From Schizosaccharomyces osmophilus (Eukaryota), in NCBI RefSeq assembly GCF_027921745.1, contig NC_079239.1:124001-188000 (forward strand): a stretch of DNA of 64,000 nucleotides. The letters are read 5' to 3'. Under the pieces are notes generated by a model, which searched no databases, was not told the DNA's origin, and saw nothing but the letters and a program-made list of their open reading frames with translations. Below are positions 2,883-3,925 of this stretch, piece after piece. Each line of letters starts with the position of its first letter. Position 1 is the first letter of the stretch. A program made the translations under genes and the position numbers.

Positions 2883-3925
2883 TCAAACATCAGCCCTTTG
2901 CTCAGCAAGAGGCTGAAGTTCGATTTCTTCGTTACGAGGTGGACCATTCCTGCTAATTCTGTTCTGACAGGTTATTAAGAGATCCTAGATTAAGAATAAT
3001 AAATGTACTTACTACACGTGTCATATCTTGAATATCTTCAATCACATCTGGGTTTCCTAGAGAAGTTAGAAAGGTTGATAGAAAATAGCACCTTACGAAT
3101 GAGAAGTACAAAGAAGCATATGTTCAGTACTGCCAAAACAACCAACACCGCAGCTGAATGTATATATTCAAATCCTCCTGATAATTTCAAAACGTAACCA
3201 CCGACTCCATTCAAACTTATCAGTATAATTAGGGCTTTACACACAGCTGGTGCCACTTTCTTTGTTGCTCTTCCAGCTTGCGTGAGCCCTTGTTTGGCCT
3301 GCGGGAACCATTCTTTAGGCAATTGAGTTATTACTAATAGTTAGTAAGTCATTAAAAATCCTGAAATTAGTTTCTTACCAATTGTCAATGACAAAAATAG
3401 AGCGCACCAAACGCCAAAAAGTACCCAAACGGCAAGCTGATTAAACGGAATTTCGTAAACAAGAAGAATGACCCTCGCAATAATTAAGCATACATTATAT
3501 ACAATAAAAATAGCAAAAACAATTGCTAATTTACGAGGCGTCAGATACCTTTTCTTTTTAGAACTTTCTTCTGTTTCAGGAGCCATTTCTAGATCAATAA
3601 ATTTGGTTGAAGCTAATGGATGTATTATTAACTGTTCTTTCGTTGTTTGTGAAAAGGATAGAGGTATTCGCCCTGTTTGTTGACACTTATCGACAAGGTT
3701 ATTAGTTTCAAACCCATCAAATAAATAAACAAGCATGATTCTTCCATCATGAACCGTTCAAACAAGAACACAAAGAATAAACCTTTCCTTTCCATTTCAA
3801 CTAATCTTACCTGAATACGGAGGAGGCGTACCATCAGAAGGAGACGACTGACTATCTACCTTTTCATCATTGAGCGTTTTGGAAGAGTCATCAGAATCCG
3901 AAATAGGAGTATATTTGTTTTTCAT
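2883..3925 (-). CDS. wtf: wtf-family meiotic driver; long (antidote) isoform 236 aa, short (poison) isoform 189 aa from ATG 3586
   Basis: Exons 3925-3811, 3612-3379, 3333-3097, 3056-3013, 2963-2883; all donors GTAAG, AG acceptors with YTAAY branch sites, 711 nt open frame. Exon 1 MKNKYTPIS...GTPPPYS; exons 2-3 encode about 4 hydrophobic segments; tail NEEIELQPLAEQRADV. Confidence 0.88.
3674..3684 (-). promoter_or_regulatory. FLEX-like (Mei4) site in wtf intron 1, candidate poison-transcript promoter element
   Basis: GTCAACAAACA on minus strand, one mismatch to GTAAACAAACA, about 90 nt upstream of the exon-2 ATG. Confidence 0.5.

What the first reader, a model, noticed from the sequence alone, without database searches (positions are those of the whole stretch)
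2883..3925. Intact five-exon wtf poison-antidote meiotic driver hidden across fragmentary ORFs
Seen: five exons splice into an open 236-aa frame. Exon 1 is a hydrophilic, Lys-containing PPPY peptide. An in-frame ATG (3586) near the start of exon 2 gives a 189-aa isoform lacking the PY region. The 198-nt intron 1 holds a FLEX-like GTCAACAAACA. Established: wtf drivers make a long antidote and a short Mei4-driven poison from one gene and kill spores that do not inherit it. Inference: this copy has the parts of an active driver rather than a pseudogene or antidote-only allele.
Basis: partly seen in the sequence, partly recalled or inferred. Interest (0 to 1): 0.85.

Follow-up and report, generated by a model that had tools for sequence, protein, structure and literature searches.

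The report
Already annotated fission-yeast wtf gene

Summary
Five exons on the minus strand (3925..2883) splice into a 236-aa frame. Exon 1 encodes a Lys-rich PPPY tail. Met48 (ATG 3586) would give a 189-aa form. GTCAACAAACA lies in the 198-nt intron 1.

The spliced protein is letter-for-letter the NCBI protein 'wtf meiotic driver [Schizosaccharomyces osmophilus]'. Jia et al. 2023 list it as chr2:126883-127925(-), SOMG_02561, wtf23, 'syntenic with wtf9 in CBS 15792'. De Carvalho et al. 2022 list wtf9 as a 1043-bp predicted DRIVER, with a divergent wag gene, 5S rDNA on both sides, and this same FLEX-like hit. All of this layout is in the window.

'Active driver' stays an inference:
- The motif scores p=2.48e-5, short of the paper's confident cut-off (<=3e-6).
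- I could lay no S. osmophilus RNA.
- This gene has not been assayed in any paper I read.
- Its nearest assayed relative, S. cryophilus wtf1 (about 86-89% identical), has a toxic poison and a rescuing antidote in budding yeast.

Verdict: real, ordinary and already known. One untested side lead: the neighbouring Wag protein family carries invariant PY-type motifs.

The parts
2052..2170 (-). 5S rRNA gene downstream of the wtf gene; one arm of the flanking direct repeat
   Evidence: Rfam RF00001, 107 bits. A 132-nt direct repeat at 2049-2180 and 6157-6288 is 95% alike; 117 of 119 bases are identical over the 5S genes.
2883..3925 (-). wtf gene from ATG to stop, 1043 bp. This is SOMG_02561 / wtf23 of strain CBS 15793T, counterpart of wtf9 of CBS 15792.
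   Evidence: The spliced product is identical to P0001 (WBW74390.1 / XP_056038633.1). Jia 2023 Table S4 row: chr2 126883-127925 minus strand. De Carvalho Supp. 1c row wtf9: 1043 bp.
3811..3925 (-). Exon 1 (115 nt), the antidote-specific N-terminal tail
   Evidence: Contigs of a relative join 3811 to 3612.
3815..3826 (-). Codons for PPPY (residues 34-37), the PY motif
   Evidence: Read from the sequence. P34, P35 and Y37 are invariant in 45 of 45 aligned Wtf proteins.
3613..3810 (-). Intron 1 (198 nt), the presumed site of the poison promoter
   Evidence: GTAAG...TTAAT...AG. The S. osmophilus family mean for intron 1 is 198.6 nt. The same 198 nt are skipped in contigs of a relative.
3674..3684 (-). 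FLEX-like GTCAACAAACA, one mismatch to the Mei4 site GTAAACAAACA
   Evidence: It lies at the same offset (241) as the FIMO hit listed for wtf9, p=2.48e-5.
3584..3586 (-). In-frame ATG of Met48, the predicted start of the 189-aa poison isoform
   Evidence: This position is Met in 42 of 45 aligned Wtf proteins.
3379..3612 (-). Exon 2 (234 nt)
   Evidence: 100% match to P0001.
3334..3378 (-). Intron 2 (45 nt)
   Evidence: GTAAG..CTAAC..AG. A relative's contigs skip 3331-3378.
3097..3333 (-). Exon 3 (237 nt)
3057..3096 (-). Intron 3 (40 nt)
   Evidence: GTAAG..CTAAC..AG.
3013..3056 (-). Exon 4 (44 nt), short because it has no copies of the exon-4 repeat
   Evidence: Supp. 1r lists 0 repeats for S. 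osmophilus wtf9. The family mean for exon 4 is 111.8 nt.
2964..3012 (-). Intron 4 (49 nt)
   Evidence: GTAAG..TTAAT..AG.
2883..2963 (-). Exon 5 (81 nt including the stop), encoding the family-conserved C-terminus NEEIELQPLAEQRADV
   Evidence: N221, E222, E225-A230, Q232 and V236 are at least 90% conserved in alignment A2.
3926..4968 (.). Divergent wtf-wag intergenic region, presumed to hold the antidote promoter. It contains forkhead-type cores.
   Evidence: GTAAACAAAGG at 4286 (+), GTAAACA at 4932 (-), ACAAACA at 4072 and 4682 (+). A relative's spliced contig extends to 4020.
4969..5830 (+). wag (wtf-associated gene), SOMG_02562. Two exons (4969-5464, 5520-5830), 268 aa.
   Evidence: The spliced product is identical to P0056. 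Table S4 row: chr2 128969-129830 plus strand. Supp. 1c lists wag6 divergent from wtf9.
6160..6278 (-). 5S rRNA gene upstream of the wag-wtf unit
   Evidence: Rfam RF00001, 100.9 bits; direct repeat.

Best explanation
The stretch 2883-3925 (minus strand) is the already annotated five-exon wtf gene of Schizosaccharomyces osmophilus (SOMG_02561, wtf23 in strain CBS 15793T, counterpart of wtf9 in CBS 15792), which is predicted, not shown, to be a poison-antidote meiotic driver.

Shown here: the gene is intact. It sits in a 5S rDNA - wtf - wag - 5S rDNA unit and keeps every family-conserved sequence feature.

Inferred from work on relatives:
- A transcript starting upstream of exon 1 would give the 236-aa antidote. 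Its N-terminal tail (PPPY plus five lysines before Met48) would recruit Pub1/Rsp5-type ubiquitin ligases and be ubiquitinated. It would then be sorted from the trans-Golgi to the endosome/vacuole, taking co-assembled poison with it.
- A shorter transcript starting in intron 1 would be translated from Met48. This gives a 189-aa protein with four predicted membrane helices and no PY tail, which would be the poison.
- Spores that inherit the gene would keep making antidote. Spores that do not inherit it would be killed.

My odds: identity with the annotated gene about 0.99; the short form toxic if expressed about 0.75; a measurable transmission bias in a heterozygote about 0.35. The lower odds reflect that the intron-1 promoter has only a degenerate Mei4 site and that many intact relatives drive weakly or not at all.
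For: Identity. The spliced 236 aa equal P0001, 'wtf meiotic driver [S. osmophilus]'. Table S4 of Jia 2023 gives the same length, strand and neighbour. De Carvalho Supp. 1c lists wtf9 with a unique length of 1043 bp and a FIMO hit GTCAACAAACA at offset 241. It also lists a divergent wag6, 5S rDNA on both sides, and predicted function DRIVER.

Anatomy. Exon and intron sizes are 115/234/237/44/81 and 198/45/40/49 nt. The S. osmophilus family means are 111/246/233/112/77 and 199/47/40/55 nt.

Family. 53 proteins matched at E<=0.001, all from S. osmophilus, S. octosporus or S. cryophilus. They include SOCG_04480, which is S. octosporus wtf25, a validated driver: 40% identity, E=6e-28.

Conservation. 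In 45 aligned Wtf proteins, P34, P35 and Y37 are invariant and Met48 is present in 42 of 45.

Nearest assayed relative. S. cryophilus wtf1 (SPOG_03611 = P0006) shares 210 of 236 aligned columns with this protein. The paper's table gives 85.65%. Its poison is toxic and its antidote rescues in S. cerevisiae.

PY mechanism. PY-dependent Pub1 ubiquitination and sorting were shown for S. pombe cw9. Four S. octosporus antidotes became toxic when a deubiquitinase was tethered to them. [quoted passage not shown]

Splicing. Contigs of a close relative (runs X1 and X2, 90-95% alike) skip exactly 3613-3810 and also 3331-3378. These homologous introns are therefore removed in vivo in that relative.
Against: - No transcript data for this species could be laid, so neither start site is shown.
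- The paper reports 0 of 31 intact S. osmophilus wtf genes with a confident FLEX hit in intron 1. The GTCAACAAACA variant breaks the GTAAACA core, and it is also present in the predicted antidote-only wtf16.
- S. osmophilus wtf19 is also labelled DRIVER, yet its poison is non-toxic in S. cerevisiae.
- Seven S. octosporus genes were deleted, chosen for their high poison-transcript level. Three drove clearly, two weakly and two not at all.
- Exon 4 has 0 repeats, while one paper notes that all validated S. octosporus drivers contain repeats.
- Pfam's WTF model (PF03303) scores only 7.5 bits against a cut-off of 25. The validated S. octosporus wtf25 does not match it either.
Confidence: 0.9

Rival explanations
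1. One reading: this copy is an active driver now. It would make enough intron-1-initiated poison transcript in meiosis to kill spores that lack it.
For: The frame is intact and Met48 is in good context (G at -3, G at +4). No upstream ATG lies between 3716 and 3586. The GTCAACAAACA motif sits at a conserved offset (239-252) in 18 of 31 intact S. osmophilus wtf genes. One of these is wtf41, whose poison is toxic. 14 S. octosporus genes without a confident FLEX hit still make short transcripts. The nearest assayed relative, S. cryophilus wtf1, is functional. [quoted passage not shown] That pattern is expected of a recently spread selfish copy.
Against: No RNA data exist for this species. The motif is below the published confidence cut-off and is also present in the antidote-only wtf16. 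Base rates are modest: 3 of 7 S. octosporus genes drove clearly, and drive tracked the poison transcript level. The toxicity assays used artificial promoters, so they say nothing about native expression.
Confidence: 0.35
2. The gene is intact but silent as a killer. In practice it would act only as an antidote or suppressor, or be neutral, because the poison transcript is absent or too weak, or the short protein has lost toxicity.
For: There is no confident Mei4 site in intron 1. In S. octosporus, 17 of 48 intact genes have no detectable short transcript, and most of the rest have few reads. The wtf19 poison is non-toxic despite a DRIVER label. wtf21 and wtf62 deletions showed no distortion.
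Against: Met48 is kept in 42 of 45 family members. The poison-only part of the protein is 89% identical to a toxic relative. Both points argue that the short isoform is still under selection.
Confidence: 0.5
3. It is a pseudogene or a chance assembly of open frames, not a functional gene.
For: None was found. The only weak point is the short exon 4 (44 nt against a family mean of 112 nt).
Against: All four introns have consensus splice signals. The product is full length and ends with the family-conserved C-terminus. It is annotated as intact in two strains. The short exon 4 is explained by zero copies of a variable repeat.
Confidence: 0.01

Closest known systems
S. osmophilus wtf23 (SOMG_02561, CBS 15793T) = wtf9 (CBS 15792); Jia et al. 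2023, De Carvalho et al. 2022
   Same: It is the same gene. The 236-aa product is identical. Length (1043 bp), strand, wag neighbour, flanking 5S rDNA genes and FLEX-like hit at offset 241 all agree.
   Different: Nothing in the gene itself differs. The strand column of Supp. 1c gives '-' for the motif of this 'forward' gene, whereas in the window the motif is on the coding strand. The identity between the two strains' copies (Table S20 of Jia 2023) could not be seen.
S. cryophilus wtf1 (SPOG_03611), poison toxic and antidote rescuing in S. cerevisiae
   Same: It has the same five-exon type, the same PPPY tail and Met48, and the same C-terminus. 210 of 236 aligned columns are identical; the paper's table gives 85.65%. 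It is also flanked by a wag gene and 5S rDNA.
   Different: It is from a different species and locus, since the window's locus has no syntenic wtf in S. cryophilus. It lacks an 8-residue insert after residue 126 and one residue near 211. Antidotes generally do not neutralise non-cognate poisons; pairs sharing 13 to 76% identity were tested. Cross-rescue at 86-89% identity is untested.
S. octosporus wtf25 (SOCG_04480), validated meiotic driver in its own species
   Same: It belongs to the same family (40% identity, E=6e-28). It shares the N-terminal tail, PY motif, Met at the start of exon 2 and the C-terminal NEEIELQPLAEQRA motif.
   Different: wtf25 has a perfect GTAAACAAACA in intron 1 and 33 short-isoform long reads. 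It is not flanked by 5S rDNA, and it has been shown to drive. None of these is known for the window's gene.
S. pombe wtf4 / cw9 drivers (Pfam WTF, PF03303)
   Same: The logic is the same: two overlapping isoforms from one gene, a PY-tailed antidote, a multi-pass membrane poison, and a Mei4-dependent poison promoter in intron 1.
   Different: Only about 12-16% amino-acid identity. The Pfam WTF model is not matched: 7.5 bits against a cut-off of 25. S. pombe genes are associated with Tf LTRs rather than 5S rDNA, and they have no wag partner. Their antidotes carry two or three PY motifs rather than one.

Membership tests
wtf gene family (non-pombe Schizosaccharomyces clade, De Carvalho et al. 2022) | Significant sequence similarity to named wtf proteins | tested here: met
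   100% identical to the NCBI 'wtf meiotic driver' protein. 53 family hits at E<=0.001, including S. octosporus wtf25 at E=6e-28.
wtf gene family (non-pombe Schizosaccharomyces clade, De Carvalho et al. 2022) | Five-exon structure with family-typical exon and intron sizes | tested here: met
   Exons 115/234/237/44/81 nt and introns 198/45/40/49 nt. S. osmophilus means are 111/246/233/112/77 and 199/47/40/55 nt. Exon 4 is short because it has 0 repeats.
wtf gene family (non-pombe Schizosaccharomyces clade, De Carvalho et al. 2022) | Association with dispersed 5S rDNA and, often, a divergent wag gene | tested here: met
   5S genes at 2052-2170 and 6160-6278, both on the minus strand. wag (SOMG_02562) at 4969-5830 on the plus strand.
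wtf 'driver' class, as opposed to antidote-only or pseudogene | Intact frame plus an in-frame alternative ATG near the start of exon 2 | tested here: met
   236-aa open frame; Met48 at 3586 gives 189 aa. This is the criterion behind the published DRIVER label.
wtf 'driver' class, as opposed to antidote-only or pseudogene | FLEX (Mei4) motif in intron 1 | tested here: inconclusive
   Only the one-mismatch GTCAACAAACA is present. Published FIMO p=2.48e-5, above the confident cut-off of 3e-6. The motif is also present in the antidote-only wtf16.
wtf 'driver' class, as opposed to antidote-only or pseudogene | [quoted passage not shown] | not testable with these tools
   No RNA run of this species was available to lay. 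Only spliced contigs of a relative show removal of the homologous introns 1 and 2, and contigs cannot show transcript starts.
wtf 'driver' class, as opposed to antidote-only or pseudogene | Short isoform toxic, long isoform rescues; transmission bias in heterozygotes | not testable with these tools
   These are bench assays. No report for this gene appears in the papers read: 'wtf9' has 0 occurrences in the main text of De Carvalho 2022, and 'osmophilus wtf9' and 'osmophilus wtf23' have 0 in Nidamangala Srinivasa 2025.
PY-motif antidote mechanism (Zheng et al. 2023) | [LP]PxY motif and lysines in the antidote-specific cytosolic tail, absent from the short isoform | tested here: met
   PPPY at residues 34-37 and 5 Lys before Met48. 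The motif is invariant in 45 of 45 aligned family members. Binding to Pub1 and ubiquitination were not tested.
Multi-pass membrane poison | Several transmembrane helices downstream of Met48 | tested here: met
   Hydrophobic spans at 64-122 and 142-201. AlphaFold2 helices at 64-90, 97-119, 144-164 and 176-196, but the model has low confidence (mean pLDDT 52.8).
Pfam WTF (PF03303, built on S. pombe proteins) | Score at or above the gathering cut-off of 25 bits | tested here: not met
   7.5 bits, E=4.4. The validated S. octosporus wtf25 gives no WTF match at E<=10 in the same call. The model therefore does not reach this clade, and the miss says little.

The most novel reading that the evidence does not exclude
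The S. osmophilus-type GTCAACAAACA, kept at the same offset in 18 of 31 intact paralogues, could be a working variant Mei4 site. That would make this lineage-specific, 5S-flanked copy a live spore killer. The co-duplicated Wag protein has an N-terminal tail with an invariant LPxY and a second [AV]PxY motif ahead of hydrophobic helices. It could be a second PY-motif membrane protein using the same Pub1/Rsp5 sorting route, and so modulate Wtf poison or antidote traffic. On that reading the duplicating unit would be a two-gene drive module, not a single gene.
Probability: 0.12. Interest if true: 0.55.

Novelty: already known. Interest (0 to 1): 0.12.

Why it matters
The finding adds nothing to the literature. 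The gene, its exon model, its two predicted start codons, its PY motif, its FLEX-like hit, its wag partner and its 5S rDNA flanks are all published, and the locus is already used as an example of wtf spread into a pre-existing 5S rDNA site. It does show that reading raw sequence can recover a full spliced driver-type gene correctly. Two questions remain open. One is whether S. osmophilus wtf genes, none of which has a canonical FLEX, express a poison at all. The other is what the uncharacterised wag family does. The PY-type motifs seen here in all 27 aligned Wag proteins give that second question a testable handle.

Tried and rejected
- No RNA holder listed. The run search gave 3 rows, none on record as RNA and none holding half of the words. 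X3 gave one short piece in exon 2 only.
- No whole genome is held for this window.
- The scan's earlier notes hold nothing for this genome.
- The promoter/terminator scan uses bacterial consensus sites. It gave 13 sites against 13.2 expected and is irrelevant for a yeast.
- Pfam on single exons and on the whole proteins gave nothing above cut-off.
- PDB sequence search: nothing at E<=1 for the Wag profile. For the Wtf profile there were only three weak hits (E 0.018-0.39) to unrelated membrane proteins.
- The AlphaFold2 model of the Wtf protein was poor (pLDDT 52.8, pTM 0.29), so I ran no fold search.
- I tested the idea that wag is a diverged wtf copy, because both begin with a KNKY-like N-terminus and carry a PY motif. 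Profile-profile comparison rejected it: probability 0.3%, 15 columns aligned.
- The ESM Atlas gave no usable hit for Wag.
- Table S20 of Jia 2023 (identity between the two strains' copies) was not found in the stored, cut supplement.
- Supplementary Fig. 7a of Zheng 2023 and the figures of all papers were not seen.
- Other wtf copies in the window: tblastn with P0001 and P0004 found only this gene.
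Full report
WHAT IS THERE

On the minus strand, five exons join into a 711-nt reading frame of 236 codons with one terminal stop. They lie at 3925-3811, 3612-3379, 3333-3097, 3056-3013 and 2963-2883. The four introns are 198, 45, 40 and 49 nt. Each begins with GTAAG, ends with AG and has a YTRAY branch-like site.

Exon 1 encodes a hydrophilic 38-residue tail with PPPY at residues 34-37 and lysines at 2, 4, 16 and 22. The ATG at 3586 is in frame (Met48) and would give a 189-aa product without that tail. 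GTCAACAAACA lies at 3684-3674 on the coding strand, inside intron 1. No ATG lies between 3716 and 3586, so Met48 would be the first AUG of a transcript starting in the 3' half of the intron.

IS IT MORE THAN CHANCE?

The window holds 9 matches to GTAAACAAACA with at most one mismatch, against 2.39 expected (sd 1.52). None of 100 shuffles reached 9. Scaled to 198 nt, by my arithmetic, about 0.007 matches are expected. The motif is therefore unlikely to be there by chance, but this is a post-hoc figure. The open frame is not chance, because it equals a database protein.

WHAT IT IS

A search with the exon-2 frame returned a 236-aa protein, P0001, named 'wtf meiotic driver [Schizosaccharomyces osmophilus]'. 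My spliced translation is identical to it. Its accessions are WBW74390.1 and XP_056038633.1.

Table S4 of Jia et al. 2023 (PMC10085805; I saw passages and supplement rows only) lists chr2 126883-127925, minus strand, SOMG_02561, wtf23. [quoted passage not shown] The next gene is SOMG_02562 at 128969-129830, plus strand. Both fit the window if its first base is chr2:124001.

For De Carvalho et al. 2022 (PMC9562144) I read sections 6 (part 1), 7, 10, 11 and 12, passages, Supp. file 1 parts 1-2 and searched rows, and Fig. 2-source data 1. Supplementary file 1c lists S. osmophilus wtf9 as follows:
- 1043 bp, the only gene of that length in the table;
- wag6 in the opposite orientation;
- 5S rDNA upstream and downstream;
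- predicted function DRIVER;
- FIMO hit GTCAACAAACA at offset 241, p=2.48e-5.

The window shows the same layout. There are 5S rRNA genes at 2052-2170 and 6160-6278, both on the minus strand, within a 132-nt direct repeat that is 95% alike and 4108 nt apart. There is also a two-exon gene at 4969-5830 whose product equals SOMG_02562.

The same supplement marks wtf9 as a lineage-specific locus. No wtf gene lies at the syntenic site in S. octosporus or S. cryophilus, but a lone 5S rDNA gene is there in both. The paper uses such loci as evidence that wtf genes spread into pre-existing 5S rDNA genes.

FAMILY EVIDENCE GATHERED HERE

A search with the whole protein gave 53 proteins at E<=0.001 among 922 candidates. 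All are from S. osmophilus, S. octosporus or S. cryophilus. I aligned 44 of these 53 plus P0006, dropping nine short or partial ones: P0002, P0025, P0031, P0033, P0038, P0043, P0053, P0054 and P0055.

In the 45 sequences, the invariant columns fall almost entirely (17 of 18) in the N-terminal tail. They include T33, P34, P35 and Y37. Met48 is present in 42 of 45. The C-terminal NEEIELQPLAEQRxxV is at least 90% conserved. Exon and intron sizes match the family means, except for a short exon 4 that has no copies of the variable repeat.

Hydropathy gives hydrophobic spans at 64-122 and 142-201, and a low-confidence AlphaFold2 model gives four hydrophobic helices downstream of Met48. Pfam's WTF model is not matched (7.5 bits against a cut-off of 25). 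It does not match the validated S. octosporus wtf25 either, so this only shows that the model is specific to S. pombe.

INDIRECT TRANSCRIPT EVIDENCE

No RNA run of this species was listed. Two coded runs of a relative hold contigs 90-95% alike. Those contigs skip exactly 3613-3810 (198 nt, with GT..AG ends on the gene's strand) and also 3331-3378. One contig runs upstream to 4020.

In that relative, then, a long spliced transcript of a close homologue exists and uses the homologous intron 1 and intron 2 borders. Contigs cannot show transcript starts, so nothing is learned about a short isoform.

HOW IT MOST LIKELY WORKS (INFERRED FROM RELATIVES)

Zheng et al. 2023 (PMC10721834, passages only) studied the S. 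pombe gene cw9. [quoted passage not shown] The tail lysines are then ubiquitinated, which diverts the protein from the trans-Golgi to the endosome and makes it non-toxic and protective. Four S. octosporus antidotes became toxic when a deubiquitinase was tethered to them. [quoted passage not shown]

De Carvalho et al. showed that poisons of S. octosporus wtf25 and wtf61, S. osmophilus wtf41 and S. cryophilus wtf1 are toxic in S. cerevisiae and are partly rescued by their own antidotes. The poison of S. osmophilus wtf19 is not toxic. This was confirmed with tagged proteins by Nidamangala Srinivasa et al. 2025 (PMC11892871, passages).

The window's protein is closest to S. cryophilus wtf1 (SPOG_03611 = P0006). 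They share 210 of 236 aligned columns. The paper's table gives 85.65%, against 33.6% to wtf41 and 36.9% to wtf19; I assigned those table columns by counting the header.

I therefore expect the 236-aa form to be a PY-tagged antidote and the 189-aa form to be toxic if it is made.

WHAT REMAINS OPEN

The step from 'has the parts' to 'active driver' is open for these reasons:
- The paper states that none of the 31 intact S. osmophilus genes has a confident FLEX hit in intron 1.
- From Supp. 1c I count GTCAACAAACA in 18 of the 31 intact genes, at offsets 239-252. These include the toxic wtf41 and also wtf16, the one predicted antidote-only gene. The motif is therefore inherited with the paralogues and does not discriminate.
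- It keeps a forkhead-type ACAAACA core but breaks GTAAACA. That is my own reading and is not tested.
- In S. octosporus, seven genes chosen for high poison transcript were deleted. Three drove clearly, two weakly and two not at all, and drive tracked the poison transcript level.
- No paper I searched reports an assay of this gene.

I put about 0.35 on measurable drive.

COMPARISON AND NOVELTY

This is not a new member of the family. It is a named, annotated gene whose every feature in the finding is already tabulated. I rate it 'already known', with low interest.

SEEN IN PASSING

The wag neighbour belongs to a family of 30 hits, of which I aligned 27, dropping three short ones. An LPxY motif at residues 31-34 is invariant in 27 of 27. 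A second motif, [AV]PxY at residues 50-53, has P51 and Y53 invariant in 27 of 27. Both lie ahead of hydrophobic spans.

Wag shows no detectable homology to Wtf (hhalign probability 0.3%). It also has no Pfam, PDB or Atlas match. The paper calls it an uncharacterised family. No paper in the library holds wtf, wag, 'PY motif' and octosporus together, and 'wag' does not occur in Zheng 2023.

A PY-motif membrane protein that is co-duplicated with a gene whose antidote depends on PY-directed ubiquitination is worth a bench test. Here it is only a motif observation.

Noticed in passing
window 4969-5464 and 5520-5830 (+), SOMG_02562 / wag: The Wag protein (268 aa) has an LPxY motif (residues 31-34) invariant in 27 of 27 aligned family members. 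A second motif, [AV]PxY (residues 50-53), has its P and Y invariant in 27 of 27. Both lie in an N-terminal tail ahead of hydrophobic spans. This is the same kind of motif that makes the Wtf antidote a Pub1/Rsp5 client. No homology to Wtf was detected, and no paper was found that mentions it.
   Followed up: partly
window 3926-4968 (wtf-wag intergenic region): The divergent promoter region holds forkhead-type cores: GTAAACAAAGG at 4286 (+), GTAAACA at 4932 (-), and ACAAACA at 4072 and 4682 (+). They could put both genes under meiotic forkhead control. This was not tested.
   Followed up: no
window 13940-13950 (-), 16353-16363 (-), 18663-18673 (+): Three perfect 11-nt FLEX motifs (GTAAACAAACA) lie within 5 kb. 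The nearby ORFs have Duo1, phosphoglucomutase and GAPDH domains. These are candidate Mei4 targets unrelated to wtf.
   Followed up: no
window 44231-44304 and 45518-45591 (+): Two tRNA-Phe(GAA) genes lie 1.3 kb apart with identical Rfam scores.
   Followed up: no
window 3674-3684 versus De Carvalho 2022 Supp. file 1c: The table gives strand '-' for the GTCAACAAACA hit of the 'forward' gene wtf9, and the opposite strand for all such hits. In the window the motif is on the coding strand at the same offset of 241. This is probably a bookkeeping difference in the table.
   Followed up: partly
window 2-1276 (-) and 7093-8137 (+): The 5S-wtf-wag-5S unit sits between a 425-aa open frame that runs off the window start and has no Pfam match, and a tubulin gene split by an intron (Tubulin and Tubulin_C domains). 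These are ordinary housekeeping surroundings.
   Followed up: no
runs X1 and X2 laid on window 2934-3115: The relative's spliced contigs replace the exon 4 region with 28-40 unlike letters. They also lack one codon at the exon 2/3 junction. The transcribed homologue therefore differs from this gene mainly in exon 4, the repeat-bearing and fast-changing part of the family.
   Followed up: no
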